Positions 29,092 to 62,820 of a stretch of DNA of 64,000 bases are shown piece by piece (the first letter of the stretch is position 1; the number at the start of each line of letters is the position of its first letter). A program made the position numbers and the translations under genes. This stretch comes from an uncultured Gammaproteobacteria bacterium. Its GTDB lineage: Bacteria > Patescibacteriota > Microgenomatia > CAYXHB01 > CAZYTL01. The DNA is taken from assembly GCA_964650355.1 (NCBI GenBank), contig CAZYTL010000006.1:11019-75018 (forward strand), written 5' to 3'. A model generated the notes under the pieces. That model worked only from the letters and a program-made list of their open reading frames with translations. It was not told where the DNA came from and did no database searches.

Positions 29092-29553
29092 ATGGTAAAT
29101 CTGGTTATGAAGACGAAGGATAAGGCTAAATTCAATATTGTGCTGGTAGTAGGAGCGGTGGTGAAGGACGGAAAGGTGTTAATTGGACAACGGAGTTGGG
29201 ATGAGGTGCAGGCCCCAGGTGTATGGTCTTTACCCGGCGGCAAGGTGGAGGTGCAAGGGGAATTTAACAGCGGAGTGATTGAGAAGGCTTTGAAGAGAGA
29301 AATTATGGAAGAGATGGGGGTAAAAGTAGAAGATGAAATAGTTTATATCCGCAGCGGGTCGTTTGTTCGGGTGGATGGAGCGCCGGTAGTGGTCCTACTG
29401 TTTGCGTGCAAATGGAAATCAGGAGAGCCCAAACCATTGGAAGATACGATTGAGGTAGCTTGGGTAGGAAAGAAGGATTTGGATAAGTATGAGTGGGCAG
29501 CGGGGATAAAGGAAGCGGTGAAGCTGGTGTTGGAGAGGTCGAAGGCAAGATAA
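29092..29553 (+). CDS. NUDIX hydrolase
   Basis: Nudix box PGGKVE-x7-ALKREIMEEMGV. Confidence 0.75.
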   Translation: MVNLVMKTKDKAKFNIVLVVGAVVKDGKVLIGQRSWDEVQAPGVWSLPGGKVEVQGEFNSGVIEKALKREIMEEMGVKVEDEIVYIRSGSFVRVDGAPVVVLLFACKWKSGEPKPLEDTIEVAWVGKKDLDKYEWAAGIKEAVKLVLERSKAR

Positions 29554-33329: not shown

Positions 33330-34047
33330 ATGGCGATTGAGATTGAGCTTCACCCTGCTCAGGCGGAGGTGTTAAAGATATTATTGTTTAGACCGAAGGC
33401 GCGATTCAGGGATTTGAATCTGACGGGGTTAACCAATGATCATTTTACCTGGCATTTGAATAGATTAGTGGAAGTGGGTTTGGTGGAGAAAACAGGAAAA
33501 GGAGAATATCGATTGTCAGTGCAAGGCAAAGAGTTTGCCAATCGCATGGATTCGGAGACGGTCAAGATTGAGAAACAAGCAAAAATAGCAGTGCTAATCG
33601 TGTGTGTGCGGGCAAAAAACGGAAAAACGGAGTATTTTGCAACAACGGTTAAAACAGCCGTATTTTGGATTCTATGGCTTTGTGAGCGGAAAAGTGAAGT
33701 GGGGAGAGTTGGTGGAAGAAGCTGGCAAACGGGAGTTGTGGGAAGAAACCGGCTTGAAAGGCGAACCGCAGTTGACAGGCATCGAGCACAAGGTGGATTA
33801 TGATGGTGGCGGGAAATTATTAGAGGATAAGTTCTTTTACATCATGCGGGTGGACCTGCCTGCACAGGCAGGTGAGCCGGAAGGCCAACTGGTGGCTGAT
33901 TTTGAAGGCGGTAAAAATGTGTGGGTGGAAGAAGGCAAAATAAAGCAGATAGAGAAATTGTTTCAGGATGTGTTGGAAATTATTGAGATAGTGAAGAAAC
34001 GAGGAGTACAGATTTGGGAGCAGAGGTATACGGAAAAGGAATATTAG
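33330..34047 (+). pseudogene. wHTH-NUDIX fusion regulator/hydrolase disrupted by a frameshift near 33614-33650
   Basis: Frame 1 encodes a winged-helix N-terminus ending ...KIAVLIVCVRAKNGKTEYF. The Nudix box (GKVKWGELVEEAGKRELWEETGL) continues in the +1 frame. The shift falls in an A6/A5 homopolymer region. Confidence 0.5.
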
Positions 34048-38661: not shown

Positions 38662-38698
38662 TTAGCAGTAATGTAACATGAGTGCTAAGGGGTGTCAA
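38662..38698 (-). promoter_or_regulatory. CIRCE operator (TTAGCAGTA-N9-GAGTGCTAA) overlapping a sigma70-like promoter (TTGACA-N17-TACATT) for the 38133 gene and dnaK
   Basis: Read directly from the sequence. The right half-site is a perfect CIRCE consensus and the left half matches 7 of 9. Confidence 0.65.
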
Positions 38699-38798
38699 GA
38701 ATAAATTAGTTTCTAGTTTCAAGTTGCTAGTTTCGAGTGATTATAATGATGTTAGACTTCACGTTTTGTTGCTTTTATGTTTATGTGTTTTCTTGAGT

Positions 38799-39284: not shown

Positions 39285-40006
39285 GATCGGGCGATTTCGT
39301 TTATCAGGTCGCTGAAGTAGCGGAGGCGGGGAATGGCGTAAGGAAAGTTAAGTCTGGCTGGTCCGATGAGGCCAATTTTTCCATAGAGATCAGGATTGAC
39401 TTGAAAATCGGCATAGACGTAACTGACGGGCTCCAAATAAGGATCGTTAAGTTCTTCGCCAAAGAGAATATGGATGGGGCCTTGGCTGGCTGAACGGGAG
39501 AAGAGTTTCATGAGTTGTTCTGTTTGGTCAAGCATGGCCAGCACGTGACGGGTAACGTCAATGTCATAAAATTCGGGCATGTTAAGGAGATGGGCGTAGC
39601 CGGCAGAGTACACCTGGCCCTGATTAGTACAAGCCACAGCCACGGTTTGGGCTTGGTTAGCCAAGGCTAAAGTGGCTTGTTGAAGCAGCCGGTCAATATC
39701 GTGTCGATAATCCCAAACTTTTTCTTTGGTGGAAACTTCTTCGGATACGGAAAGGGGCTTTTCCTGCATGAGTTCGTTAACGTAGAGTTTGAGGGCGACA
39801 GCGCTGGGCACCCGACCGGCTGAGGTATGCGGTTGTTTAAGGTAGCCAAGTTGGGTTAAAGAGCTCATTTCGTTGCGAATAGTAGCGGGGGAGACGCCAA
39901 TGTTGTATTTGCGTTCAATGGTTTCTGAGCCCACGGCTTCAGCGGTGTCAATGAATTCTTCAATGATGGCTTTGAGGATTTGGAGTTGGCGGGGAGTGAG
40001 GTTCAT
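39278..40006 (-). CDS. hrcA: heat-inducible transcription repressor HrcA
   Basis: MNLTPRQLQILKAIIEEFIDTAEAVGSETI...SPATIRNEMSSLTQLGYLKQPHTSAGRVPS. The start is placed at ATG 40004-40006 rather than 40039, because the upstream 11 codons are built from the promoter-region repeats. Confidence 0.85.
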   Translation of the reverse strand: MNLTPRQLQILKAIIEEFIDTAEAVGSETIERKYNIGVSPATIRNEMSSLTQLGYLKQPHTSAGRVPSAVALKLYVNELMQEKPLSVSEEVSTKEKVWDYRHDIDRLLQQATLALANQAQTVAVACTNQGQVYSAGYAHLLNMPEFYDIDVTRHVLAMLDQTEQLMKLFSRSASQGPIHILFGEELNDPYLEPVSYVYADFQVNPDLYGKIGLIGPARLNFPYAIPRLRYFSDLINEIARSW

Positions 40007-40076
40007 AACACGTAGCATGTAACACGTAGCACGTAACAATTTGTTCCAGGTTACGTGTTAGGTGTTACTTGACTCT

Positions 40077-40114
40077 TTGGCACTAATTTACCACGAGTGC
40101 TAGGGGAATGTCAA
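40077..40114 (-). promoter_or_regulatory. CIRCE operator (TTGGCACTA-N9-GAGTGCTAG) overlapping promoter TTGACA-N18-TAAATT upstream of hrcA-grpE
   Basis: Read directly from the sequence. Same architecture as the 38662 element. Confidence 0.65.
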
Positions 40115-40504: not shown

Positions 40505-41869
40505 TTAGAATAGCTGTTTGCGGTCGAAGATGAGGTTTTTTAGGGTGCCGGGAAGATTCAGCAGGTGGGGAGCAAGGTGTTGTTTTCTGATTAGGTAGGT
40601 GAGGGAGAAGACGAGCACAAAGCTTTCGGTGACGATGGTAATGGTAGCGGAGGCGTAGTAGGAGTATACAGGGATGAACAGGTAGTTCAGGATTAAGTTG
40701 AGGACTAAGGCGGCTGAAGCAATAGCTAGGGAAATGCGTTGCAGACCCAGGGCGGCCAGGGTATAGCCGGTAAGATGATTAAGGTAGGAGACCAGGGTGG
40801 CCAGCATGAGGATGCGGATGAGCACCGCAGAGACCAGGAATTGCTGGCCTCCAAGGAGGAGGACAATGGGTTGGGCCAGTAAAGCAAAGATGACGGCGAC
40901 CAAGGTACCGGCGACCAGGAGGAGATGAAATCCGGTGGTAAAGAATTTTTTGGTTTGGACAGAGCCTTGTCCGGAGCGGGAGATGAGGGGATAGAGGGTG
41001 TTCATAAAGAAGGCAGCGCCCATCACCAGGTTGTCGTGAACTTTGTAAGCCAGGCCATAGAGGCCAACGGCCTGATCGCCCTGGAAATGCTGGAGCAGGA
41101 AGGTGTCTAAGCGGTTGTAGATGCTGAACACCACCAGCAAAGCGCCCATGGGAGCGGCTTCGCGGATGAGGTATTTAAGAAGCGCGGTTGAGAGTTGGTA
41201 GTTGATGGTTGTGAGTTGGTAGCCGAAATATAGGCCAATTAACCCGGCGAGGCCGCTGGCGATGAGCAAATACATAACTACTGACTGGGGGGTAATGGCG
41301 GATTGGGTAACAGCCAGGAAGGTTAAGGAGAGAAAAAGGATGCTGGTAATGACTTCGACCAGGGCACCGTATTGAAATTTGAGATGAACCTGAAAGATGA
41401 CTTGCATGGTATTGCGCAAGGCCAGGGAAAAGAGGACCAGGCTGCCAAGCAGGAAGAGAGGAACAGGCAGGTCCACTATCCGAAAGTACCCGATGAAGAT
41501 CATTAAGAGGGCGCCGACGGTAGTAGCAATGAGGCGAAGAATTAACAGGTTGCCATAGACTTGAGGTGGGGAAAATTGCGGTGTTTCCTTTGTCGAGGCT
41601 TGGGAAGATAAATCCGCTTTCCCCGGTGGGGCGCTGGTTTGCGGAGAACTGAATTGCGATGCCAGGCGGGTGGCAATGAAACCGGTGCCCCAGTCAGTGA
41701 CGGAGCCAAAGAAGATGATCACGGTAGTGATCAGGGTATACTGACCATAGCCGGCCTGACCGAGATGGCGGGTAAGCAAGGCCGTGGTAATCAGGCTGAG
41801 AAGGATGGAAACAGCCTTGCCGGCGGCTTGGTAAAAGGTATTGGCGGTAACGGTGCGGAAAAGGGACAC
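40505..41869 (-). CDS. MOP-superfamily polysaccharide/oligosaccharide flippase (Wzx-like)
   Basis: About 14 hydrophobic segments. The N-terminus (FYQAAGKAVSILLSLITTALLTRHLGQAGYGQY) is typical of Wzx/polysaccharide biosynthesis proteins. Confidence 0.6.
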   Translation of the reverse strand: MSLFRTVTANTFYQAAGKAVSILLSLITTALLTRHLGQAGYGQYTLITTVIIFFGSVTDWGTGFIATRLASQFSSPQTSAPPGKADLSSQASTKETPQFSPPQVYGNLLILRLIATTVGALLMIFIGYFRIVDLPVPLFLLGSLVLFSLALRNTMQVIFQVHLKFQYGALVEVITSILFLSLTFLAVTQSAITPQSVVMYLLIASGLAGLIGLYFGYQLTTINYQLSTALLKYLIREAAPMGALLVVFSIYNRLDTFLLQHFQGDQAVGLYGLAYKVHDNLVMGAAFFMNTLYPLISRSGQGSVQTKKFFTTGFHLLLVAGTLVAVIFALLAQPIVLLLGGQQFLVSAVLIRILMLATLVSYLNHLTGYTLAALGLQRISLAIASAALVLNLILNYLFIPVYSYYASATITIVTESFVLVFSLTYLIRKQHLAPHLLNLPGTLKNLIFDRKQLF

Positions 41870-43404: not shown

Positions 43405-43589
43405 GATTGTTACGGGCTACGAGAATTATGCGCTTATATCCAGTGTAGACTAAATGAGAGGAATTTGACAAGCAGATGAGAAATGAATTTAGCTATTAGC
43501 TTTTGGCTTTTAGCTGTTAGAGAAAATATAAATTTGTCAGGTGATTTTGCAATTATTAAAGAGTTGGTTTAGAGTGATATCTTAGGCTT

Positions 43590-50124: not shown

Positions 50125-50499
50125 AGTTGTTTGTTTTTGTTTACGACCTATAGTCTACATTATGGAAGAAGATTTGTCAACTTTTAATTTGTTTCAGATT
50201 TAGATTTGATGTTTTAAGGAAAAATTAATAGTTGACAGGGGAGAAGAAATACAGCATATTAGGGAATTGAAAAGACTTCTTCTGCCCGATGCTTCTTTTC
50301 ACAAGTTTGTACCGATGACACTGATCGGGATCAGCGCAGACGGTATCAATTTTTGTTTATACATAATTAAGGTAATTTACTTCACTGGCCGCAATCGGAG
50401 GTGATTGTCTGGAATTAGGAATTATGAATTAGGGGATAGTTGTTGATTGATTCATGATTCTTGATTCATAATTTCATAATTCTTTTTTCGACTTTTATG

Positions 50500-51921
50500 A
50501 ATTCGAGATTCAGACTCATCAGCAGCGTGCTAGTGATCGGGGTAATCATCGCAGCAGTTTTGGGCGCAAGCAGCGCCTTTTTTAGTGACAAAGAAACGAG
50601 TCCTGACAACACGCTGGTGGCCGGAGCAGTGGATTTGAAGATTGATAACACGAGTTATTACAACGGAGAACCTTCTCCGGACACGAGTTGGACTTTGAAT
50701 GATTTGACGGATCAGTTGTTTTTTAATTTCTTGGACGTGAAGCCAGGGGACAGGGGAGAGGACACGATTTCTTTGCATGTGGATGACAATGACGCCTGGG
50801 CGTGCATGAATGTGGAGTTGACCAAGGATGATGACGCGACTTGTACTGAACCGGAACAAATAGATGATCCCACGTGTGATGAACCGGATGAGCCGGAAGA
50901 TTTGTGGGACGGAGAACTGGGAGGGTTGATTAATTTTATTTTCTGGGGTGATGACGGAGACAATGTGTTGGAGCAAGACGAAACTGATTTGGTATTTAAG
51001 GAAGGCACGGCGTCAGCGGTGCTGGCCAATGGGGTATGGAAGCTGGCTGATTCAACAGGCAATATCTGGGATGAGTTTCAGCATCCTCTGCAGGGAGGCA
51101 AGGATTATTACATTGGCAAGGCCTGGTGTTTGGGCCAGCTGACTGAAGCGCCTCTGGAGCAAGACGGCAAAGGGGCGGATAGCGACAGAACACCCGCGAA
51201 TTCCACAGGCGGAGTGCTTTGTGACGGGTCAGGATTGAACAACGCGGCGCAGTCTGATATTTTGATGGCCAATATCGGGTTTTCTGCGATTCAGTCCAGG
51301 CACAACCCGGACTTTACCTGCGGGGAAAACGGGGGAGAGCCGTGCTTTAAGAAGGCTGATTTGATGTTGGTATTGGATCGGTCAGGCAGCATCAATGATA
51401 CAGAATTGGCAACGTTGAAGACGGCGGCCAAAGCGTTTGTGGATGCGCTGGCATTGTCTGCTAATGGCCCGCATGCCGGGGAGGTGAGTTTTGCGACCAC
51501 GGCCAATCTGGACCAGCACTTGACTGATAATCCGGCATCAGTGAAGGCGGTGATTGACGCTCTGGTGCACAACGGGTTTACTGATTTGAAAGACGCGCTT
51601 GATCTGGCTACCGGAGAGCTGGCCAATCCGGGAGACTTACATGACAGACCTGACCTTGAATCACCTGATTATATTATTTTGATTACTGATGGGAATCCGA
51701 ACCGGCCAGACCCGAACACAGCAGTGGCTGAGGGAAGTGCGGCGGCGACCGCGGCTAAGAATGCAGGGATCACGATTTATGTGGTAGGAGTGGGAAGTGA
51801 TGTGGACACGGCTTATTTGCGGGATGATATTGCCACCGACCCGGCGCACTATTTCGCAGCAAATGATTTTGGAGATTTGTCAACGATCCTGGCAACGATA
51901 GCCCAGTGCCCGAATGAATAG
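50500..51921 (+). CDS. TasA/camelysin-like protein with SipW-cognate signal peptide and C-terminal vWA domain
   Basis: The N-terminus (MNSRFRLISSVLVIGVIIAAVLGASSAFFSDKETSPDNTLVAGAVDLKIDN) matches the SipW-cognate signal class. The C-terminal MIDAS motif (VLDRSGSINDTE...ILITDGNPN...IYVVGVGSD) indicates a vWA domain. The start at 50500 is chosen over 50461 by comparison with the two paralogs. Confidence 0.7.
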   Translation, partial: NSRFRLISSVLVIGVIIAAVLGASSAFFSDKETSPDNTLVAGAVDLKIDNTSYYNGEPSPDTSWTLNDLTDQLFFNFLDVKPGDRGEDTISLHVDDNDAWACMNVELTKDDDATCTEPEQIDDPTCDEPDEPEDLWDGELGGLINFIFWGDDGDNVLEQDETDLVFKEGTASAVLANGVWKLADSTGNIWDEFQHPLQGGKDYYIGKAWCLGQLTEAPLEQDGKGADSDRTPANSTGGVLCDGSGLNNAAQSDILMANIGFSAIQSRHNPDFTCGENGGEPCFKKADLMLVLDRSGSINDTELATLKTAAKAFVDALALSANGPHAGEVSFATTANLDQHLTDNPASVKAVIDALVHNGFTDLKDALDLATGELANPGDLHDRPDLESPDYIILITDGNPNRPDPNTAVAEGSAAATAAKNAGITIYVVGVGSDVDTAYLRDDIATDPAHYFAANDFGDLSTILATIAQCPNE

Positions 51922-51932
51922 AGAATCGTTGT

Positions 51933-51960
51933 GCGTTTCGACGTTTCACGTTTCAACGTT
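51933..51960. repeat. GAAACG/CGTTTC-heptamer repeat block flanking the four-helix-bundle gene (left)
   Basis: gcgtttcgacgtttcacgtttcaacgtt. A direct copy is at 52350-52379 and an inverted copy at 52390-52431. Confidence 0.5.
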
Positions 51961-51987
51961 GGTGGTTTTTGTGTTTAAAAGTTATTT

Positions 51988-52305
51988 ATGTCTAGTTCGT
52001 ATCAAGAATTGGATGTGTGGAAGCTTGGTGTAGAACTAGCAGTGTTGGTATATAGAGTAACCAGTCAATTTCCTCAACATGAATTGTACGGCCTCACCAG
52101 TCAAATGCGCAGAGCCTCGGTAGCCGTGGCTTCGAACATTGCGGAAGGTCAAGGCCGGGGATCGAGGAAGGAATTTCGACAATTTTTAAGGATTGCATTT
52201 GGTTCGCTTTTAGAATTAGAAACTCAAGTCGTAATAGCTGAAAGAATTGGATATTTAAATCAAGCTGAGAAGGATAAAATTTTGGAGATGAGCTTGAGGG
52301 TTTAG
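51988..52305 (+). CDS. four-helix-bundle protein (23S rRNA intervening-sequence protein/Avd-like family)
   Basis: ELDVWKLGVELAVLVYRVTSQFPQHELYGLTSQMRRASVAVASNIAEG...EFRQFLRIAFGSLLELETQVVIAER is the family signature. Confidence 0.75.
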   Translation: MSSSYQELDVWKLGVELAVLVYRVTSQFPQHELYGLTSQMRRASVAVASNIAEGQGRGSRKEFRQFLRIAFGSLLELETQVVIAERIGYLNQAEKDKILEMSLRV

Positions 52306-52348
52306 CAAATGATTTTTAAGTTAGAAAAATCTTTAATAAAGTAAAGTA

Positions 52349-52433
52349 AGCGTTGCACGTTTCTCGTTTTTCGTTTCGGCATTCGATCGCGAAACTTAAC
52401 GATGAAACGTTGAAACGAGAAACGCGAAACGTT
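52349..52433. repeat. right-hand direct + inverted GAAACG-type repeat block after the four-helix-bundle gene
   Basis: gcgttgcacgtttctcgtttttcgtttcgg followed by cgaaacttaacgatgaaacgttgaaacgagaaacgcgaaacg. Together they form a long imperfect hairpin. Confidence 0.5.
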
Positions 52434-52454
52434 TTAGAGAGGAGGTGAGAAAAA

Positions 52455-53327
52455 ATGCAAAAGAGAATTTTATTCAGTTTGATGATTATCGGCATTGTCG
52501 GAGCAGTAGTGTTCGGAGCCACCAGAGCGTTTTTCAGCGACACAGAAACGTCATATGATAATACTTTTGTGGCCGGAGATATTGACTTGCAAATTGACAA
52601 TGAAAGTTACGCCATTGACTACAACATCCCCCAGTATGACGGGACGCCGGTCGGCGCGTTGGTATTGAGCGGACTTACCTCATGGCCGATGGGGGATCTA
52701 GATCTTGAGAAGTTTTTCGACTTTAGAGACCTGAAGCCAGGGGACTACGGCGAAGATACCATTTCCGTGCACGTGGGCAGCAATAATGCCTGGTTGTGCG
52801 CCGCAGCGCAAATCACTGATGATTCAGACCAGACCTGTACAGAACCAGAGTTAGAGGATGATGCCAATTGTGCTGAACCCGGAGAAGGATTGGGCGAACT
52901 TGATGAAGGAGTCAATTTCGCTTTCTGGGTTGATGATGGGGACAACGTGCTTGAATCAGACGAAAAAGGATCGATCTTCCTTAACGGTCCGCTAAGCGGA
53001 TTAAGCGAAGCCGGGCAGATCGCACTGGCTGATTCAGAGCACAGCATCCTAGGCGGTAATGAACCTATTCCCGGAGGAACGACCTTTTATATCGGGAAAG
53101 CCTGGTGCTTTGGAAACCTAACCCCAGATCCAGTTGAACAAGGCGAAGGTGGTCCACTAGATCGGGAAACAACCGGATTTAACTGCGATGGTTCCCAAGT
53201 GAAAAATGCGGCCCAGACCGATCAGGTGGTGGGCGATTTGCAGTTCTACGCAGAACAGTCCCGCAACAATGGTCAATTCCTGTGCAGCAATTGGACGCCA
53301 AACTGGGAGCGGCCAGAAGAACCTTAG
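52455..53327 (+). CDS. TasA/camelysin-like protein with SipW-cognate signal peptide
   Basis: MQKRILFSLMIIGIVGAVVFGATRAFFSDTETSYDNTFVAGDIDLQIDN, and blocks shared with its paralogs (KPGDYGEDTISVHV, TCTEPE, YYIGKAWCFG). A GGAGG SD is present. Confidence 0.7.
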   Translation: MQKRILFSLMIIGIVGAVVFGATRAFFSDTETSYDNTFVAGDIDLQIDNESYAIDYNIPQYDGTPVGALVLSGLTSWPMGDLDLEKFFDFRDLKPGDYGEDTISVHVGSNNAWLCAAAQITDDSDQTCTEPELEDDANCAEPGEGLGELDEGVNFAFWVDDGDNVLESDEKGSIFLNGPLSGLSEAGQIALADSEHSILGGNEPIPGGTTFYIGKAWCFGNLTPDPVEQGEGGPLDRETTGFNCDGSQVKNAAQTDQVVGDLQFYAEQSRNNGQFLCSNWTPNWERPEEP

Positions 53328-53503: not shown

Positions 53504-54889
53504 ATGAAAAAGGTGCTTTATAGTATAATGTTGATCGGGATTGTAGGAACTGTAGTTTACGCAGCCACCAATGCCTTTTTCAGCGATACGGAAACTTCGG
53601 TCGGGAATACGTTCGAAGCCGGAGCCATTGATTTGCAGATTGATAATGAGAGCTGGTATAACGGTGAGCCGCGCGAGGATTTATCCTGGGATTTAAGAGA
53701 TTTGACGATTGAAAAGTTCTTTGATTACGCGGATTTGAAACCCGGAGATTGGGGCGAAGATACAGTGAGTCTGCACGTGACCAGCAACCCGGCTTACGCG
53801 TGTGTAGCTTTCCGGATTACGGAAAACAGTGACAACGGGATTACTGAGCCTGAAGACGAAGTTGACGGCAATATTGACCAGGCTGACGGCACGGCTGACG
53901 GTGATCTGGCCCAAGAACTGCATTTCGCTTTCTGGGTAGATGACGGAGACAACGTGCTGGAAGACAATGAGGTTGAATCGCTGGTGGGAGGCCAGGCGGC
54001 TGATGTGTTTGAACAAGGCATATATGCTTTGGCTGATTCCCAGGGCGGGTTGTTTGAAGAAGCGTTGCAGCCGGAAACCGATTATTACATTGGCAAGGCC
54101 TGGTGTTACGGAGACATGAGTCCGGAGCCGGTACCAGCCGGACAAAGCGAGGATCCAAGTGTGGCATCAGGAATTACCTGTAACGGGCAGCCGGTGAGTA
54201 ATATTTCCCAGACAGACAAGTTGGTGGGGGATATTCAGTTCTACGCGGTGCAGACCAGGCACAATGAAGAGTTCCTGTGTAGCAGGGATTATGAACCTAC
54301 ATGGCCAAGACAAATCACGTCAACTACTGGTGACGGCTGGGCAAGCGTGGGTGGAGATTTCACCGAAGCTTGGCAAGCCGACGGTCGCTGGGGTGACGGA
54401 GGGACTTCCAATGCAGAAAATGAAGTTCGTGTTGGACTGGCTGGCGGTGGAAGCCCACAAGCTCAACACCAGAGCGATAACTCTACCGGCCCTTGGAGAA
54501 ATGGGGTAACTGAAAGCTTTACTCTCACCTATGACGGTGGGACTGAAGCAGCCTTGACTATCGGTGATACCACGGCAGATACCACAGTTGACTTACCTTT
54601 GGGTGATGTTCCCGGTGCTAACGGAAAAATCGGGATTACAGTCAAGACTTACGTGGATGATACCGAAGTTAAAGTTGAAAACGTAAAACTTGACGGGATG
54701 TCTCCAGTAGGTCCTGACAGCGTTAGCGAATCAGTCAATGGATCAAAAGAATACCTGGTCATCAGTGGCCTGACAGAGTTGTCTGACGGGTTCACTTTGA
54801 CAGGTGATTTGACATTCACTTGGGGCGGAACAACGCCTTCCTCAGCAGAGGATATGTCCATGCTCATCCAAGTGGAAAATGCGCCTTAG
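53504..54889 (+). CDS. TasA/camelysin-like protein with SipW-cognate signal peptide and extra C-terminal domain
   Basis: MKKVLYSIMLIGIVGTVVYAATNAFFSDTETSVGNTFEAGAIDLQIDN and shared paralog blocks. About 170 aa of additional C-terminal sequence. Confidence 0.7.
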   Translation: MKKVLYSIMLIGIVGTVVYAATNAFFSDTETSVGNTFEAGAIDLQIDNESWYNGEPREDLSWDLRDLTIEKFFDYADLKPGDWGEDTVSLHVTSNPAYACVAFRITENSDNGITEPEDEVDGNIDQADGTADGDLAQELHFAFWVDDGDNVLEDNEVESLVGGQAADVFEQGIYALADSQGGLFEEALQPETDYYIGKAWCYGDMSPEPVPAGQSEDPSVASGITCNGQPVSNISQTDKLVGDIQFYAVQTRHNEEFLCSRDYEPTWPRQITSTTGDGWASVGGDFTEAWQADGRWGDGGTSNAENEVRVGLAGGGSPQAQHQSDNSTGPWRNGVTESFTLTYDGGTEAALTIGDTTADTTVDLPLGDVPGANGKIGITVKTYVDDTEVKVENVKLDGMSPVGPDSVSESVNGSKEYLVISGLTELSDGFTLTGDLTFTWGGTTPSSAEDMSMLIQVENAP

Positions 54890-55649: not shown

Positions 55650-56000
55650 ATGGCTGTTCTGTTAACGGGAGAGATCCTTGACGAGATAAGGACCAAGGGG
55701 GAGGAGATGGAAATGGGGTATTATTTCCGTCTTGGTCCGGACATTTATATCAGAATCACTAATCCGGAAGAAGAGATCCCGGAAGCAGGTAGAGGTGGCA
55801 TAGAGGAGCGGGTTGATGACTCAGGCACTTACGAAGTACTGAATGACCCGACGATGATGCAATTTATCAGCGATTTTCATGATCCTAGCCGGATTAAAGA
55901 GACCCGAGGTTATTTGCTACCTATTTTAGTGCCAAGAGGATTTATGTTATTAACTGCTCAACGGGATTTTTTCCGTAGAATTCCCGAGGAATTTCAGTAG
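55650..56000 (+). CDS. hypothetical protein
   Basis: 116-aa ORF with a weak SD and no recognised family. Confidence 0.35.
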   Translation: MAVLLTGEILDEIRTKGEEMEMGYYFRLGPDIYIRITNPEEEIPEAGRGGIEERVDDSGTYEVLNDPTMMQFISDFHDPSRIKETRGYLLPILVPRGFMLLTAQRDFFRRIPEEFQ

Positions 56001-56049
56001 CCGTATCACGTAATACGTAGCACGTAACAATATATTAATTCCTGATTCA

Positions 56050-57165
56050 TTGTTAAATACTATGCAGTCTTTACATTACTTATTCAGAATTTTTCAATTA
56101 TTAGTGACTATTTTGGTGGTGGTGTTCGCCGGGGTGCTGATTCTGACGGCTTTGCCGGTGAAAGGGAATATTAAATTGTTAACGGTGCTGTCCGGTTCAA
56201 TGGGGCCCACGATTCCGGTGGGCAGCGCGGTGTTGATCAAGCCGGTTGATCATTACCTAACCAATGAGGTGATTACTTATGCCCGCGGGGGCAATGAAAA
56301 GCAGCTGGTAACGCACAGGATTGTGGCTACGCAGTTTGTGAACGGGGAAAAGCAGTATATTACTAAAGGAGACGCCAACGAGGATCCGGATCCGGCCGTG
56401 GTAAAAGCTGATCAGGTGAAGGGGCAGGTGTTGCTGACGGTGCCGTATCTGGGATATGTGGCGAATTGGATCAAGACGCCGGCCGGGTTTGTGAGTCTGA
56501 TTGTGTTGCCGGCGGCGATTTTGATTTACGGAGAGTTGATGGCAGTGAAAAATGAGATGGTGAGAGCATGGAAGAAAAGGCATTTGGGAGTGCTGGCGTT
56601 GTTAGTGGTGATAGCGGCCGGATGGCAGTTAAACAGTAATACTCAGGCGATGCTGGAAGACAGGGAAGTGAGCGAGATGAATACGATCCAGGCGTGGGTA
56701 GAAGGTACGGCCGTGGAAGTTCAGACGGACGGAACGCAGGAAACAACCCCGACAGGTGAGCCGTCTCCAACGCCTCCTGAAGGAGCCAATTTGGTGATTA
56801 ATGAGTTGTTAGCCAATCCTCAAACAGATTTTACTTATGAATGGGTGGAAATTTATAATCCCACCGGAGCGGATGTGGATCTGACTGACTGGGCGTTGAA
56901 GGATGCGGCAAATCCTGCAAAAAGTTTATCCGGATTAGGGACAATTTCGGCCGGAGGATTTAAGGTTTATAGCGACCATAATTGGTTAAATAATAGTGGG
57001 AGTGAAACTTTGCAATTAATGTTTCCGGGTACCAATGTAGTAGACGAGGTCACATACACTGGCACGTCAGCTGACGTGTCGCATGGTAGGGAAACTGACG
57101 GAGGGCTGCCGTGGAAAGACTGCGGCACGGCAACTCAAGGCAGTTCGAATAATGGCAGCTGCTAA
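56050..57165 (+). CDS. SipW-type (archaeal-type) signal peptidase I fused to a C-terminal lamin-tail domain
   Basis: N-terminal TM segment, then LSGSMGPTIPVGSAVLIKP...VTHRIV...ITKGDANEDPDPAVV (catalytic Ser/His region of SipW-like SPases). The C-terminus (LVINELLANPQTDFTYEWVEIYNPTGADVDLTDWAL) is an LTD signature. Confidence 0.75.
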   Translation: MLNTMQSLHYLFRIFQLLVTILVVVFAGVLILTALPVKGNIKLLTVLSGSMGPTIPVGSAVLIKPVDHYLTNEVITYARGGNEKQLVTHRIVATQFVNGEKQYITKGDANEDPDPAVVKADQVKGQVLLTVPYLGYVANWIKTPAGFVSLIVLPAAILIYGELMAVKNEMVRAWKKRHLGVLALLVVIAAGWQLNSNTQAMLEDREVSEMNTIQAWVEGTAVEVQTDGTQETTPTGEPSPTPPEGANLVINELLANPQTDFTYEWVEIYNPTGADVDLTDWALKDAANPAKSLSGLGTISAGGFKVYSDHNWLNNSGSETLQLMFPGTNVVDEVTYTGTSADVSHGRETDGGLPWKDCGTATQGSSNNGSC

Positions 57166-57175
57166 ATGAATCAGG

Positions 57176-58324
57176 ATGTTAAAAAGGCGAATTTTAACTA
57201 TTTTATTTTTGGCTTTGTTGGTAGGGATCGGTTGGTGGGGAGTGGATCACCAGGGGTGGTTGATTCAGGCGGCCGGACCGCTGGTGGTGACCTGGGAGGA
57301 CACGCCATTGTTTTATGTGACTAATATGCTGCCCGGAGACAGCGAGTCCAAGACGATCGGATTTGATAATCAAAAGGACCAGAGTGTGCAGATCGGGTTA
57401 AGAGCGATAAAAGTGGAAGAGGATCCGACTGATCCGGCGATTTCTCAGGTGTTGGATGTGGTAGTGGAAAAGGTGGGAGGAAGTGTGTTGTATGGACAGG
57501 GTAGTCCGGGCGGAGCAAAGACGTTGGCAGATTTGTTAATGGAATTTGACGGCAGCGACTCGCTGGTGTTGGGAACTTTGGCGCCTGGAGATAAAGCTGA
57601 TTACATGATGACGGTGGAGATGCCTACATGGGTCGGGAATGAATACCAGGGCGCCAAGGTGGTGTTTAATTTGCAGGTGATTACTGATCATAAGGCCTTG
57701 GATTTGCCGCCGGAATGTGAGCATTTGAGAGGCACGATCACGGCAGTGATTGAAGGCACGGAGGGGAAGGATGTGCTGCGAGGGACTTCGGCCAATGAGC
57801 TGATTATCGGATACGGAGAAAAGGATAATATCAAAGGCAATGGAGGCGATGATTGCCTGGTGGGAGGAGACGGGGATGACCATATTAACGGGGGAACAGG
57901 GAATGATGTGCTGATCGGGGGAGAAGGTAATGATGATTTGGACGGGCATTTTGGCAATGATTTGATCTACGGAGGCAATGGAAATGATTTGCTGAAAGGC
58001 AAGCAGGGACAGGATGTGTTTTACGCCGGAGAAGGGGATGACAAAGTGCGTGCCGGGTCAGGCGAAGACCTGATTTTCGGAGGACCAGGGAATGACCAAT
58101 TGGAAGGAGGAGGAGACGATGATTTGATTTTTGGGGAAGCGGGAAATGACATGATTAAAGGTGACAGTGGGGATGATGTGATTGAAGGGGGACAGGGAGA
58201 TGATGACATGAACGGCAACAGCGGGGATGATCATTTGACCGGGGATGCGGACACGGACAAGGCTAACGGGAGCTCGGGAACTGATACCTGCGACGCGGAG
58301 ACGGAAATTCACTGCGAGCTATGA
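57176..58324 (+). CDS. membrane-anchored protein with RTX-type (GGxGxDxUx) calcium-binding repeats
   Basis: N-terminal TM helix and a central domain. The C-terminal array (GGDGDDHINGGTGNDVLIGGEGNDDLDG...) is a run of hemolysin-type repeats. Confidence 0.6.
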   Translation: MLKRRILTILFLALLVGIGWWGVDHQGWLIQAAGPLVVTWEDTPLFYVTNMLPGDSESKTIGFDNQKDQSVQIGLRAIKVEEDPTDPAISQVLDVVVEKVGGSVLYGQGSPGGAKTLADLLMEFDGSDSLVLGTLAPGDKADYMMTVEMPTWVGNEYQGAKVVFNLQVITDHKALDLPPECEHLRGTITAVIEGTEGKDVLRGTSANELIIGYGEKDNIKGNGGDDCLVGGDGDDHINGGTGNDVLIGGEGNDDLDGHFGNDLIYGGNGNDLLKGKQGQDVFYAGEGDDKVRAGSGEDLIFGGPGNDQLEGGGDDDLIFGEAGNDMIKGDSGDDVIEGGQGDDDMNGNSGDDHLTGDADTDKANGSSGTDTCDAETEIHCEL

Positions 58325-60364: not shown

Positions 60365-62820
60365 TCGAGAGTGTCTCTCATCCAGATCTGGAGGTGGGGA
60401 TGATCAAAGACGGAAAAGGTTTCTTCGGCCAAGGCTTCGTCGGTGATGGCGAAAGGCCCGATGCGGGGAGCGTTATAGAAGTCGGCGACTTTGGTGAAGC
60501 CCAGGTCTCCGGAAAACAGTTGCTGGTAAAATTTAGCGGCTTGAGGAAATTGGTCTGGGTGATCAAGGGTATGTTTCCAGAGGCGACGGGAAAGGAGGAC
60601 GATGACGGCGGTTTGGGGAAGGGTAGCGGCTAGTTCCTGCTGACGTTGATAAGAGATGCTGGTTTCTGGAGGCAAAGATTCGTCGGATGATTGATCAAGT
60701 TCGTAAAAATTGAACAAGGTAATATGAGACATAAATCTCGGATTGAAGGGAATAATGCCCAGGTCCCAGACTTCGGAAATAATGCGGGAATTTTGCGGAA
60801 TATGTTGAACGGCCCACTGAGCGGCTTGGATGCGAGGATCAGGCTGAAGGTAGACGGAGAATAAAGACAAGCCTTGAATTACTTGCCAACCAATGATGAT
60901 CAAGAGAAACAGTGGGTATATTTTCAATCTTTTGTTTAATTGTTTCATGGTTTCATTGTTCCATTGTTGAAGTGCGATTAATATCCAAACAGCAGCAAAT
61001 ATCAAATAAGGCAGAGTGGGGATAGTATATCTAGTCCATTTGACGTAGAGTTGACCGATGAAGCCGAATTGGAGGAGGAAAAAGATCACTAGTAGGGAGG
61101 AAGCAGGAAGTAGAGATGGAGACGGTTTCGGAGTGCGGAGAGACAAAATTAGTCCGAGGAGACCCAGGATGAGTACTGGCCAGGAAAGGATCCAGGGGTA
61201 GACGTGGGTGAATTGGTAAAGGTAAGGGATGGTGTTAATAAAGTGACGGGTGTAGAAGGTGGAAATGGTGCCGCGGGCGATGTCGCCTTCGATACCGATA
61301 GAATAAGCAAAGGCAGGATTCAAATTATCCTCGGCTGATTTAATCAGTTCGAGAGGGTGGAGCAAAGTGTACGCTTCAGAAGATGGCTGAGGATGGACGG
61401 CTGGCGGGGGTGGAGGGTTGCCTCCTTTGTCTAAGGGAAGGAGGGCACGGAGAGTAAAAGGGTTAGTAACAAAGAAAATAACCGAACTGGCCAAAATCAG
61501 AGCGGATGATTTAAGAATGAGACTAAATAACCGGTTGACGAAGGCCGGAACCGGAGATTGGAAATAGGCGGGAGAAAGGGAAAGAGGAGCGAGAAGAGTG
61601 CGCGTTTTATGAAAGATGATTCTGGGAAGATTAATGAGCAGGAGGATGGTTTCCCAAACCCAATTAATGATGGAGCCGGCGGGAATACTTGATCCGTAAG
61701 CGGCAATGCCACAAGCCCAGAAGGCTAACAATGACCAAGCAAGATGGTAATCGCTGGTGACGACTAAAATCGACTGATAATCTGCCTGTTTAATTAGTTT
61801 GGTGACGGCTTGGGCGTTGCCCATGGTAGTATGAGACCGAGCTTCAAGGGTAAGATGGGAAGGCTTGACGCCGGCTTTAAGAGCCATCTCCTGCATAGCC
61901 TGAGCTTCGCTGGAGGCTGAATCAGAGAGGCGGTGCCCGGACCCGCCACTGAAGATCAGTTGCGGCGCCAAGCCCTGCTGGTAAAGTTTGAGGGCATGGC
62001 TAACCCTGTTTTTAAGCTCAACTGAAGGTTTACCAGAAGAAGATAAGGATTTGCCCAAGACCACAATGGCATCGTATTTTTCAAGATGAGAAGGATGGAC
62101 GGTTTGTTTGATTAACCACCAAAATAAGGCGAAACACAAAGCAGGAAGAAGGACAAGGCTGGTGACTTTAGTGCCCACGGCCAGACCAAGAAGCAGAGCG
62201 GCCCAGGTGATCCACTTCCAGGTGGGATTTCTGGCCAGTTCAAGAGCAACCACGAATAAGAGGAGGCGAAGAAAGGTGAGCCAGATCTCAAAGGTGCCGA
62301 AATGAGCGAACTGGATGAAACCAAAGCTAAAGGTGGTGAGAGTGGCGGATAAGAGAGGAATTAAGGTGGAGGGTTTAGGGTTTAGGGTGGATTTATTAAT
62401 GGGGCTAAAATATCTTTGGGTGATCCAATACATCAAAGGGATGAGAGCGGTAGAGAGGAGGGCGGAGATAATCCGACCGACTTTGATGGCAGTGAAAAAA
62501 GGGTCTTCAGTGACGCTCAGCCAGTGTTGAGCGGCTTTAACCAGGAAGAAGTTAAGGTAGATGGGCACGGTGCCGTAAGCAAAGAAATCAGGATCCATGT
62601 TATACGGCCAGCTGAGACGGGTGACGGCAGAGGCAATGTTGCGCTCGTCAGGATGGAACCACCAGGGTTCTCCCCAGTTGAGGTTGGTGAAGCGCAGGTA
62701 AGCGCCGATGAGGGTAAGGATGAACAATAAGAAGATTTCCACACGAATGAACCCGAATAGAACTCGAATTGGCGCGAAAAGGTGGCTTTTGTGTAGTGAC
62801 CGTAGGGATAGTTTACTCAT
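60349..62820 (-). CDS. GT-C (GT39/ArnT-like) membrane glycosyltransferase fused with an internal DUF218 (YdcF/SanA-like) domain
   Basis: The N-terminal region (LRFTNLNWGEPWWFHPDERNIASAV...) is typical of GT39/ArnT-family proteins. The mid-protein block (IVVLGKSLSSSGKPSVELKNRVSHALKLYQQGLAPQLIFSGGSG...VTSDYH) is a DUF218 signature. Many TM helices. Confidence 0.55.
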   Translation of the reverse strand: MSKLSLRSLHKSHLFAPIRVLFGFIRVEIFLLFILTLIGAYLRFTNLNWGEPWWFHPDERNIASAVTRLSWPYNMDPDFFAYGTVPIYLNFFLVKAAQHWLSVTEDPFFTAIKVGRIISALLSTALIPLMYWITQRYFSPINKSTLNPKPSTLIPLLSATLTTFSFGFIQFAHFGTFEIWLTFLRLLLFVVALELARNPTWKWITWAALLLGLAVGTKVTSLVLLPALCFALFWWLIKQTVHPSHLEKYDAIVVLGKSLSSSGKPSVELKNRVSHALKLYQQGLAPQLIFSGGSGHRLSDSASSEAQAMQEMALKAGVKPSHLTLEARSHTTMGNAQAVTKLIKQADYQSILVVTSDYHLAWSLLAFWACGIAAYGSSIPAGSIINWVWETILLLINLPRIIFHKTRTLLAPLSLSPAYFQSPVPAFVNRLFSLILKSSALILASSVIFFVTNPFTLRALLPLDKGGNPPPPPAVHPQPSSEAYTLLHPLELIKSAEDNLNPAFAYSIGIEGDIARGTISTFYTRHFINTIPYLYQFTHVYPWILSWPVLILGLLGLILSLRTPKPSPSLLPASSLLVIFFLLQFGFIGQLYVKWTRYTIPTLPYLIFAAVWILIALQQWNNETMKQLNKRLKIYPLFLLIIIGWQVIQGLSLFSVYLQPDPRIQAAQWAVQHIPQNSRIISEVWDLGIIPFNPRFMSHITLFNFYELDQSSDESLPPETSISYQRQQELAATLPQTAVIVLLSRRLWKHTLDHPDQFPQAAKFYQQLFSGDLGFTKVADFYNAPRIGPFAITDEALAEETFSVFDHPHLQIWMRDTLDQPAN

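What the first reader, a model, noticed from the sequence alone, without database searches (positions are those of the whole stretch)
51925..52450. Four-helix-bundle (23S-IVS/Avd-family) gene inserted between TasA paralogs and flanked by GAAACG-heptamer direct and inverted repeats
A 105-aa four-helix-bundle gene lies between two TasA-like genes. The same fold family as DGR Avd proteins and rRNA intervening-sequence ORFs, it is bracketed by a direct repeat (51933-51960 and 52350-52379, units CGTTTC[A/G/T]). An inverted copy (52390-52431) follows, forming a long imperfect hairpin. The signature is that of a small mobile or intron-derived cassette that has landed inside the fibre-gene cluster. 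No reverse transcriptase is nearby.
Basis: partly seen in the sequence, partly recalled or inferred. Interest (0 to 1): 0.6.

Follow-up and report, generated by a model that had tools for sequence, protein, structure and literature searches.

The report
rRNA-IVS-type 4HB cassette in operon
A small gene for a four-helix-bundle protein, closed off by arrays of 7-base repeats, sits between two fibre genes of an uncultured (CPR) bacterium. It has the same build as the "intervening sequences" known from 23S rRNA genes, and the same build surrounds relatives of this gene in many phyla outside rRNA, which I found described in no paper.

Summary
Window 51988-52305 encodes a PF05635/TIGR02436 four-helix-bundle (S23p/IVS) protein. 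It lies between two genes with SipW-type signal peptides, and CGTTTCN heptamer arrays occur on both sides of it and nowhere else in the window.

- The 5' array pairs with the outer 3' array in a 23-bp stem that encloses the ORF.
- The ORF has lost 13 residues to a TAG nonsense codon.
- This architecture is typical of the family, not peculiar to this locus. 30 of 43 non-redundant metagenomic relatives have flanking inverted repeats above the 99th percentile of controls, mostly of period 7. Cyanobacterial plasmid copies look the same.
- The closest relatives (62-66% identity) carry GTTTC-core arrays in other CPR operons: between hrcA and grpE, between nusG and rplK, and between another TasA pair.
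- The window's own hrcA/grpE junction is an empty site.

The Coxiella 23S rRNA IVS has the same plan (S23p ORF, tandem heptamers, a 28-bp terminal stem cut by RNase III).

My reading is an IVS-type cassette living in an mRNA operon. It is probably mobile over evolutionary time and is decaying here. RNase III processing and the means of movement are inferred. No reverse transcriptase or DGR repeats are present, and there is no general target-site duplication.

The parts
50497..51921 (+). Upstream host gene: a secreted protein with a SipW-type signal peptide and a C-terminal vWA domain (TasA-like paralog 1). Its TAG stop is at 51919-51921.
   Evidence: Pfam VWA E 7.5e-23. TIGR04088 above cut-off. 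The start at ATG 50497 is my inference from the signal-peptide alignment.
51919..51924 (.). TAGAGA, the left copy of a 6-bp direct repeat that abuts the longest version of the inverted repeat. It overlaps the upstream stop codon. It is a possible target-site duplication, not confirmed.
   Evidence: Read from the sequence. The longest inverted repeat has arms 51924-51960 and 52398-52434 (I1). No general TSD was found across 35 related cassettes.
51925..51962 (+). 5' arm: a tandem array of CGTTTCN units (3.5 units, 51934-51960).
   Evidence: It pairs with 52409-52432 in the MFE fold, with 24.4 base pairs expected from the ensemble.
51963..51987 (+). Leader of the 4HB ORF. It has no Shine-Dalgarno sequence and is predicted to pair with 52307-52337.
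   Evidence: Sequence. Helices 51964-51970/52325-52331 and 51975-51987/52307-52319.
51988..52305 (+). Four-helix-bundle (S23p / 23S_rRNA_IVP) ORF: 105 codons ending in a premature TAG at 52303-52305.
   Evidence: PF05635 E 7.6e-35. TIGR02436. PDB 2GSC (XCC0516) E 5.8e-37. In alignment A1 the TAG lies where relatives have K, R or G.
52306..52341 (+). Former C-terminus of the 4HB protein: 11 sense codons (QMIFKLEKSLIK... frame) plus the original TAA stop, still in frame.
   Evidence: tblastn alignments of relatives extend to query residues 116-118 of the read-through sequence. The invariant M108 and L112 are retained.
52348..52380 (+). Proximal 3' array: a second direct copy of the CGTTTCN array (about 3 units plus a degenerate one).
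   Evidence: (D1, D2). It pairs with 52389-52408 in the MFE fold.
52389..52434 (+). 3' arm: an inverted array of GAAACGN units (5-6 units). Its inner part pairs with the proximal array and its outer part with the 5' arm.
   Evidence: (I1-I7).
52435..52440 (.). TAGAGA, the right copy of the 6-bp direct repeat. It overlaps the Shine-Dalgarno region of the downstream gene (AGAGGAGGTGAG, 52436-52447).
   Evidence: Sequence.
52455..53327 (+). Downstream host gene: a secreted protein with a SipW-type signal peptide (TasA-like paralog 2).
   Evidence: Peptidase_M73 E 8.6e-5. TIGR04088 E 1.6e-5. Relatives in CPR genomes at 44-66% identity.

Best explanation
Window 51925-52434 (about 510 bp) is a discrete cassette of the same kind as the ORF-bearing intervening sequences (IVS) of 23S rRNA genes. 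It holds an S23p-type four-helix-bundle gene in the loop of a long stem, and the stem is made of inverted arrays of tandem heptamers. Here it sits in the intergenic gap of a protein-coding operon, between two genes for SipW-dependent secreted proteins of a CPR/Patescibacteria genome, not in rRNA.

**Shown.**
- The anatomy of the element.
- The same plan surrounds most relatives of the gene in many phyla.
- Gene and arms are inherited together. They occur in unrelated operon junctions, always tightly placed between an upstream stop codon and a downstream start.

**Inferred.**
1. The cassette is co-transcribed with the operon.
2. The 23-bp stem folds the insert out of the host transcript and is a substrate for RNase III, as in rRNA IVSs. 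This limits damage to the host operon.
3. The cassette spreads between intergenic sites over evolutionary time, by a mechanism that it does not itself fully encode.
4. The arrays are recognised in a sequence-specific way, most simply by the pentameric 4HB protein. The basis is that the GTTTC core of the unit has survived saturating synonymous divergence.

The copy in this window is decaying or weakly expressed. It has a nonsense codon 13 residues before the normal end and no ribosome-binding site.
For: **Family and anatomy**
- Family assignment.
- Stem enclosing the ORF: the MFE of 51915-52450 is -144.4 kcal/mol (z = -2.11). Positions 51933-51957 pair with 52409-52432.

**Generality**
- 30 of 43 non-redundant metagenomic loci have an upstream/downstream inverted repeat above the 99th percentile of 195 same-contig controls. 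Arm period is 7 in most, and unit sequences differ between loci.
- The same plan appears on plasmids of Nostoc punctiforme, Calothrix and Stanieria.
- None of 40 loci scanned lies in an rRNA gene.

**Cassette behaviour**
- The five closest proteins are 62-66% identical to one another. All have (N)GTTTC(N) arrays, yet they lie between TasA genes, between hrcA and grpE (two lineages), and between nusG and rplK.
- Sharing of arm 5-mers rises with protein identity (Spearman 0.26, p = 3e-9; 77% of pairs at 60-75% identity share a 5-mer, against 28-41% of more distant pairs).
- dN is about 0.3 while dS is saturated; dN/dS is 0.07-0.14 in the two pairs where it could be computed.

**Insertion**
- 18 related TasA loci lack the gene and the repeats.
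- In the window, the hrcA stop and grpE start overlap (ATGGTAA). A relative whose GrpE is 73% identical has a cassette of about 450 bp at exactly that junction.

**Relics**
- An ORF-less array at 38707-38738, in the window's own heat-shock operon, aligns 30/34 with that relative's 3' arm (score 48; the best of about 1000 random windows scored 24).

**Precedent**
- The Coxiella burnetii 23S IVS has an S23p ORF preceded by tandem heptamers (GACAGAT). [quoted passage not shown]
- 23S_rRNA_IVP ORFs also occur in rRNA insertions of CPR bacteria (bioRxiv 10.1101/2024.02.27.582315).
Against: - No transcript or cleavage data exist for this organism.
- Mismatches in the arms show no strand bias (39 G.U-compatible against 35 A.C; sense duplex more stable in 21 loci, antisense in 13; Wilcoxon p = 0.18). 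Selection on the sense RNA rather than on a DNA-level inverted repeat is therefore not demonstrated.
- There is no general target-site duplication, no recombinase or transposase in the cassette, and only one copy in the 64 kb. Mobility rests on comparative distribution alone.
- A 63%-identical cassette also lies between two TasA-like genes in another lineage. That could mean long residence, or a functional tie to these genes, rather than insertion.
- GC content (0.39) is within the range of host genes (z = -1.3).
- The third array (52348-52380), and the 10 or more dispersed unit copies downstream of the L084 cassette, are not explained by a simple stem.
Confidence: 0.6

Rival explanations
1. 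This is a resident regulator, not a selfish cassette. The pentameric 4HB ring binds tandem heptamer arrays in RNA or DNA, much as the TRAP ring binds tandem triplets. The arrays around its own gene, and the ORF-less arrays in front of other genes (TasA1, hrcA, sipW), are its cis-regulatory sites. On this view the gene sits in the fibre cluster because it regulates it.
For: - A related cassette sits between TasA-like genes in a second lineage.
- ORF-less heptamer-array hairpins lie directly upstream of TasA1 (50410-50483) and of hrcA (40009-40068), and a single array with no inverted partner lies directly upstream of sipW (56002-56029).
- A Portnoybacteria relative has an ORF-less 8-mer array hairpin in front of its TasA gene.
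- The GTTTC core is kept despite saturated dS, and the protein is under purifying selection.
- The 3' side of L084 has at least 10 dispersed unit copies against 4 on the 5' side. That looks like a cluster of binding sites more than a stem.
- The closest solved structure, 2GSC, is deposited with five chains and is described as a homopentameric toroid (PMC4990558).
Against: - The window has at least 8 different unit sequences but only one 4HB gene, and that gene is truncated.
- The invariant residues of the protein (NIAEG, ELETQ) are the same in loci with quite different units.
- 18 related TasA clusters do without the gene.
- Close relatives sit in heat-shock and ribosomal-protein operons.
- No nucleic-acid binding by non-DGR members has been shown in anything I could read.
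Confidence: 0.2
2. This is a remnant of a diversity-generating retroelement: an Avd accessory gene left behind after loss of the reverse transcriptase and template repeat, with the TasA-like proteins as former variable targets.
For: - PF05635 proteins also hit PF22296 (bAvd), weakly.
- The neighbours are secreted surface proteins, the usual class of DGR targets.
Against: - No RT domain was found in any ORF of at least 150 aa within about 10 kb on either side.
- The only long direct repeats are paralogous TasA coding blocks at 60-78% identity, not TR/VR-like pairs.
- By sequence the protein finds XCC0516 (E 5.8e-37) and 2RLD in the PDB, but not bAvd at E <= 0.001.
- None of the related cassettes examined showed an RT gene among the called neighbours.
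Confidence: 0.03
3. The association is a coincidence. The heptamer arrays are slippage-prone intergenic repeats common in this genome. The hairpin downstream of the ORF is an ordinary inter-cistronic stem or terminator, and the 4HB gene is an ordinary small gene that happens to lie between two such arrays.
For: - Period-7 arrays are frequent in the window irrespective of the 4HB gene (10 against 0 in shuffles).
- The specific CGTTTCN unit occurs only at this site in the window.
Against: - Flanking inverted arrays accompany 30 of 43 relatives in unrelated genomes, against a 1% control rate.
- Arm sequence tracks protein relatedness.
- No terminator-like site is detected at the hairpin.
Confidence: 0.07

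Closest known systems
ORF-bearing intervening sequences (IVS) of 23S rRNA genes (Coxiella burnetii; also Leptospira, as cited in PMC4990558)
   Same: - Same protein family (S23p / PF05635).
- The ORF lies in the loop of a stem formed by terminal inverted repeats (28 bp in Coxiella, 23 bp here).
- Tandem heptamers lie upstream of the ORF (GACAGAT x3 in Coxiella, CGTTTCN x3.5 here).
- The ribosome-binding site is poor or absent, and the ORF shows signs of decay.
- Size is about 430-510 nt.

(PMC4990558.)
   Different: - The host context is the intergenic gap of an mRNA operon, not helix 45 of 23S rRNA. There is no rRNA in the window.
- This element has a third array next to the 3' arm.
- RNase III excision is shown for the rRNA elements and only inferred here.
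Avd accessory proteins of diversity-generating retroelements (bAvd)
   Same: Same broad four-helix-bundle family. Relatives give weak PF22296 (bAvd) hits.
   Different: - No reverse transcriptase and no template/variable repeats.
- bAvd is not found by a sequence profile of this subfamily at E <= 0.001.
- Flanking heptamer arrays are not a described DGR feature, as far as I know.
XCC0516 of Xanthomonas campestris (PDB 2GSC), an S23p-family protein of unknown function
   Same: Closest solved structure by sequence (E 5.8e-37 over residues 5-118 of the profile). It is described as a homopentameric toroid of four-helix bundles (PMC4990558, citing Lin et al. 2006).
   Different: I did not examine its genomic context. 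No function is known for it either.
STRR heptanucleotide repeats of heterocystous cyanobacteria
   Same: - Tandem heptamers in intergenic DNA, many copies per genome, several unit types.
- Cyanobacterial plasmid 4HB genes are flanked by such arrays (GGGTGTR/YACACCC).
- One metagenomic cassette (L066) uses GGGGACT, whose complement is a permutation of the unit I recall as STRR1, CCCCAGT.
   Different: To my knowledge STRRs are described as repeats without an associated gene. The link to 4HB genes is made here only from a handful of loci. This window is from a CPR bacterium.
Small palindromic intergenic elements (REP/BIME, MITEs)
   Same: Short, hairpin-forming, and inserted between genes of operons. 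ORF-less versions exist in this window (40009-40068, 50410-50483).
   Different: - The arms are tandem arrays of 7-8-nt units whose sequence differs between lineages.
- The loaded form carries a conserved non-enzymatic protein gene rather than depending on a known transposase.
- There is no target-site duplication.

Membership tests
PF05635 / TIGR02436 four-helix-bundle (S23p, 23S rRNA IVS protein) family | Match to the family HMMs above their curated thresholds | tested here: met
   PF05635 scores 119.8 bits against a cut-off of 33.8. TIGR02436 scores 107.3 bits against a cut-off of 24.
PF05635 / TIGR02436 four-helix-bundle (S23p, 23S rRNA IVS protein) family | Full-length protein of about 115-125 aa covering all four helices | tested here: not met
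   The match stops at profile position 96 of 106. A TAG at codon 106 removes 13 residues that are still encoded in frame. This is a truncated member.
rRNA intervening sequence (IVS) with S23p ORF | Terminal inverted repeats forming a stem of 20 bp or more that encloses the ORF | tested here: met
   51933-51957 pairs with 52409-52432 (23 bp; 24.4 pairs expected in the ensemble).
rRNA intervening sequence (IVS) with S23p ORF | Tandem heptameric repeats upstream of the ORF (as in Coxiella) | tested here: met
   CGTTTCN x3.5 at 51934-51960. The feature is described in PMC4990558.
rRNA intervening sequence (IVS) with S23p ORF | Located inside a 23S (or 16S) rRNA gene helix | tested here: not met
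   Rfam finds no rRNA in the window. The element lies between two protein-coding genes. None of 40 related loci is in rRNA.
rRNA intervening sequence (IVS) with S23p ORF | Excised from the precursor RNA by RNase III | not testable with these tools
   This needs RNA data. Only the substrate-like stem can be shown.
Diversity-generating retroelement (DGR) | Reverse transcriptase gene adjacent to the Avd gene | tested here: not met
   No RVT domain in the ORFs of at least 150 aa between 41956 and 62820.
Diversity-generating retroelement (DGR) | Template and variable repeat pair differing at adenines | tested here: not met
   The only direct repeats of 40 nt or more nearby are paralogous TasA coding blocks at 60-78% identity.
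Classical DNA transposon / MITE | Terminal inverted repeats | tested here: met
   (I1: 37-nt arms, 73% complementary; I4: 19 nt, 95%).
Classical DNA transposon / MITE | Target-site duplication | tested here: inconclusive
   TAGAGA abuts both ends of the longest inverted repeat here. Across 35 related cassettes, however, flanking direct repeats are no longer than in controls.
Classical DNA transposon / MITE | Transposase encoded in the element, or several near-identical copies in the genome | tested here: not met
   The only ORF is the 4HB gene. There is one copy in the 64 kb. The rest of the genome could not be fetched.
Intrinsic transcription terminator | GC-rich short hairpin followed by a U tract | tested here: not met
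   No terminator-like site at 52340-52450. Only four U follow the hairpin.

The most novel reading that the evidence does not exclude
PF05635 four-helix-bundle genes closed off by inverted arrays of tandem heptamers form one very large class of mobile cassettes, unrecognised outside rRNA. The family has about 21,800 clusters at 50% identity. The classical 23S rRNA IVSs would then be only the subset that landed in rRNA. The ORF-less heptamer arrays and array hairpins scattered through intergenic regions, here and possibly the cyanobacterial STRR repeats, would be their relics or non-autonomous derivatives. The pentameric protein would recognise its cognate repeat unit.
Probability: 0.3. Interest if true: 0.8.

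Novelty: new variant of a known kind. Interest (0 to 1): 0.6.

Why it matters
'Four helix bundle protein' is one of the commonest unexplained annotations in bacterial genomes. This search found 21,805 clusters at 50% identity. Its only discussed contexts are rRNA intervening sequences and DGRs.

Two things follow if these genes generally travel with inverted heptamer arrays and insert precisely between stop and start codons of operons:
1. The origin of rRNA IVSs, open since about 1990, becomes a special case of a testable cassette biology.
2. A class of short tandem intergenic repeats gains a candidate source.

It would also explain why repeat-finding pipelines can flag this family as repeat-associated. 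That last point is my speculation.

For this window alone the consequence is modest. It holds a decaying selfish insert in a fibre operon of a CPR bacterium.

Tried and rejected
- **Source contig.** Exact-sequence look-ups of the 4HB protein, its cluster representative and TasA2 found no contig. The rest of the source genome, including its 23S rRNA gene, could not be searched.
- **Known RNA families.** Rfam at gathering thresholds gives nothing in the window.
- **tRNA genes.** ARAGORN finds none in the window.
- **Terminator reading.** No terminator-like site at the hairpin.
- **DGR reading.** No reverse transcriptase and no TR/VR pair.
- **Foreign composition.** ORF GC is 0.39 against a host-gene mean of 0.465. 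The z-score is only -1.3, so this is not informative.
- **RNA-level selection.** G.U against A.C mismatch counts, and sense against antisense duplex energies, show no asymmetry. The test neither supports nor excludes an RNA stem.
- **Target-site duplication as a family feature.** Rejected.
- **RNAduplex z-scores on 150-nt flanks.** Too slow and uninformative. I replaced this with local alignment against same-contig controls.
- **Literature.** Seven full-text searches found no paper that links heptamer arrays to 4HB genes outside rRNA. The library lacks most subscription journals, so prior description cannot be excluded.

Full report
**Observation.**
- Window 51988-52305 is a 105-codon ORF that matches Pfam 23S_rRNA_IVP (PF05635, E 7.6e-35) and NCBIfam TIGR02436 'four helix bundle protein'.
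- A profile of it and its relatives finds the pentameric XCC0516 structure 2GSC in the PDB (E 5.8e-37) and 2RLD, but not DGR bAvd.
- The genes on either side (50497-51921 and 52455-53327), and the next one (53504-54889), all carry SipW-dependent-type signal peptides. A SipW-type signal peptidase lies at 56050-57165. 'Between TasA-like paralogs' is therefore fair.
- The heptamer repeats are real and local. CGTTTCNCGTTTC with up to one mismatch occurs 6 times, all within 51942-52431, against 0.32 expected. No other cluster of the hexamer exists in the 64 kb.
- The downstream hairpin folds at -35.1 kcal/mol (z = -3.19).

1. The 5' array is complementary to the outer half of the 3' inverted array. 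In the MFE of 51915-52450 (-144.4 kcal/mol, z = -2.11), 51933-51957 pairs with 52409-52432 (23 bp in three helices). The second direct array, 52359-52374, pairs with the inner half, 52389-52408. The ORF therefore sits in the loop of a long stem.
2. The ORF is truncated. Relatives are 117-123 aa. Their alignments run on through the TAG at 52303-52305 to the TAA at 52339-52341. In alignment A1 the TAG falls where relatives have K, R or G, and the invariant M108 and L112 follow in frame. TAG is a real stop in this genome, since the upstream gene ends with it.
3. No Shine-Dalgarno sequence precedes the ORF, although the host gene downstream has AGAGGAGGTGAG.

**Organism and neighbourhood.**
- The best relatives of TasA2 in GTDB genomes are Woesebacteria, Microgenomates and other CPR MAGs at 44-66% identity. 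The window also holds hrcA-grpE-dnaK and many ORFs without family matches.
- None of the 18 related TasA loci, each with up to 10 kb of flank, contains a 4HB gene or a cluster of the hexamer.

**The architecture is typical of the family.**
- A metagenome scan returned 57 loci encoding relatives at 38-72% identity. Reading their flanks shows 3-5 tandem units of 6-8 nt upstream and the reverse complement downstream, again and again.
- Units differ from locus to locus: GTTTCTA, GTGGTTA, TAGAATC, GTCAGTA, AGCTTTT, GCGTGAAT, GGGTCTC, GTGTCAG, GGGGACT and others.
- Scored by local alignment of the upstream flank against the reverse complement of the downstream flank, 30 of 43 non-redundant loci exceed the 99th percentile of 195 controls from the same contigs. 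Arm period is 7 in most. Several negatives are loci where I mis-set the ORF boundaries.
- None of 40 loci scanned is in an rRNA gene.
- Annotated cyanobacterial plasmids show the same plan. On Nostoc punctiforme pNPUN01 and Calothrix brevissima plasmid 1, GGGTGTR arrays upstream and YACACCC arrays downstream flank genes annotated as 'four helix bundle protein' and 'S23 ribosomal protein' respectively. Stanieria shows it with CTTCTGCC units.
- The family is very large: 21,805 clusters at 50% identity at E <= 1e-3.

**Gene and arms travel together.** The closest proteins (62-66% identical to the window's and to one another) all have GTTTC-core units like the window's CGTTTCA. Their contexts differ:
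- P0004 and P0005 lie between hrcA and grpE in two lineages.
- P0003 lies between nusG and rplK. The first unit overlaps the nusG TAG and the last abuts the rplK ATG.
- P0002 lies between two TasA-like genes (the downstream gene is 58-63% identical to TasA2 and TasA3).

Further points:
- Across all loci, sharing of arm 5-mers rises with protein identity.
- dS among the five CPR copies is saturated while dN is about 0.3 (dN/dS 0.07-0.14 in the two pairs where it could be computed). The protein is under purifying selection.
- Retention of the GTTTC core in non-coding arms points to a constraint on sequence, not only on pairing. This last step is my inference.

**Insertion evidence.**
- In the window, hrcA and grpE overlap (…TCATGGTAA…). 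In L078, whose GrpE is 73% identical and whose HrcA ends with the same residues, about 450 bp of arm-4HB-arm lie between the hrcA TAA and the grpE ATG.
- The window's own heat-shock operon carries an ORF-less array at 38707-38738. It aligns 30/34 with the L078 3' arm (score 48; best of about 1000 random windows 24). This is what a relic of such a cassette would look like.

**Wider repeat landscape.**
- Period-7 arrays of at least 3 copies occur 10 times in the window against 0 in 20 shuffles. Other periods show little or no excess: period 6 gives 5 arrays against a shuffle mean of 1.85, and period 8 gives 1 against 0.1.
- Two are ORF-less array hairpins: 40009-40068, directly upstream of hrcA, and 50410-50483, directly upstream of TasA1.
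- A Portnoybacteria relative has an 8-mer array hairpin in front of its TasA gene.

**Comparison with what is known.**
- The Coxiella burnetii 23S IVS is a 428-nt element in helix 45. It has an S23p ORF, tandem heptamers (GACAGAT) upstream of the start, terminal inverted repeats forming a 28-bp stem cut by RNase III in vitro, a poor SD and a decaying ORF. The authors review transposon-remnant and mobile-element hypotheses (PMC4990558).
- CPR rRNA insertions also contain 23S_rRNA_IVP ORFs (bioRxiv 10.1101/2024.02.27.582315).
- The window's element meets every structural criterion of that kind except its defining location.
- I found no paper that describes the same plan outside rRNA. The library is incomplete.

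**Mechanism, with its weak points.**
- The most economical reading is an IVS-type cassette that is co-transcribed with the operon. It folds out of the host RNA through its array stem and is probably trimmed by RNase III.
- The tight placement between stop and start codons would keep the host cistrons close at the base of the stem.
- These steps are inferred.
- The arms show no G.U over A.C bias (39 against 35), so an RNA-level function is not demonstrated over a DNA-level one.
- There is no family-wide target-site duplication. The TAGAGA at 51919-51924 and 52435-52440 abuts the longest inverted repeat here and would restore a compact stop-SD junction, but it stands alone.
- The third array here, its mirror image in L076 ([A+][A-]-ORF-[A-]), and the 10 or more dispersed units downstream of the L084 cassette suggest binding-site clusters as much as stems. 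Recombination between the two direct arrays would delete the ORF and leave an array hairpin like those at 40009 and 50410. That is a hypothesis.

**Verdict.** It is wrong or unproven in detail: there is no link to introns, recency is not shown, and the mechanism is unknown. The locus itself is a decaying member. The interest lies in the general architecture it led to.

Noticed in passing
window 40009-40068: ORF-less hairpin built from heptamer arrays: CACGTAG x3.9, a 14-nt loop, then GTTACGT x2.7. It folds at -36.0 kcal/mol on the + strand and -21.3 on the - strand. It abuts the hrcA start codon (ATG at 40006 on the - strand) and lies next to a CIRCE-like operator at about 40080-40106.
   Followed up: partly
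window 38707-38738: A solo array of TAGTTTC units (GAAACTA on the sense strand of the heat-shock operon) between grpE and a CIRCE-like operator (38663-38692). It aligns 30/34 with the 3' arm of the 4HB cassette that relatives carry between hrcA and grpE.
   Followed up: yes
window 50410-50483: Array hairpin (GGAATTA x3.3 paired with TGATTCA/ATAATTC units through many G.U pairs). It folds at -30.9 kcal/mol on the + strand and -13.0 on the - strand. It lies directly upstream of the likely TasA1 start (ATG 50497). The strand asymmetry suggests an RNA structure in the 5' leader.
   Followed up: partly
window 55993-56036 and 40002-40045: A 44-nt direct repeat (80% identical) made of CACGTAR heptamers. 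One copy lies between the stop of ORF 55650-56000 and the sipW-like gene (56050). The other is the hrcA-proximal arm of the 40009 hairpin.
   Followed up: partly
window 3652, 23275-23310, 41193-41222, 43488-43520, 60931-60969, 62365-62391: Further tandem arrays of period 7 (one of period 8) with different units: AGATTCA, AGTTGGT, TTTAGCT, TTGTTTCA, AGGGTTT. Period 7 is specifically enriched in the window (10 arrays against 0 in shuffles). At least the array at 60931 lies inside a long ORF.
   Followed up: partly
L010 (Candidatus Portnoybacteria, JACQXN010000020.1), about 110 nt upstream of locus position 10001: ORF-less hairpin of 8-mer arrays (AATTAACG x4 / CGTTAATN x3) directly in front of a TasA-like gene in another CPR lineage.
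   Followed up: no
L051 1324-1395, L064 3388-3459, L029 3661-3731: In three metagenomic loci a tRNA gene lies downstream of the 4HB cassette. In L051 and L064 it begins about 45 and 70 nt after the 4HB stop codon, within a few nt of the 3' array. In L029 it lies about 300 nt further on.
   Followed up: no
L040 2167-2212, L042 3437-3482, L070 4381-4426: Acido-Lenti-1 RNA motifs (Rfam RF01687) lie 1-1.5 kb from 4HB cassettes in three contigs. This may only reflect the taxon.
   Followed up: no
L090 (Nostoc punctiforme pNPUN01) and L092 (Calothrix brevissima plasmid 1): In both plasmids the 4HB cassette directly follows a tyrosine recombinase/integrase gene. In L089 and L091 it lies beside transposase genes.
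   Followed up: no
window 57176-58324: A protein with RTX calcium-binding nonapeptide repeats (HemolysinCabind, E 6e-38) lies just downstream of the sipW-like gene, in the same cluster as the TasA-like genes. TasA3 carries a 'choice-of-anchor W' domain.
   Followed up: no
window 29618-33247: A large subtilisin-like (mycosin-like) serine protease of 1209 aa. A 47-nt repeat is shared between 29128-29174, 33201-33247 and 33453-33499.
   Followed up: no
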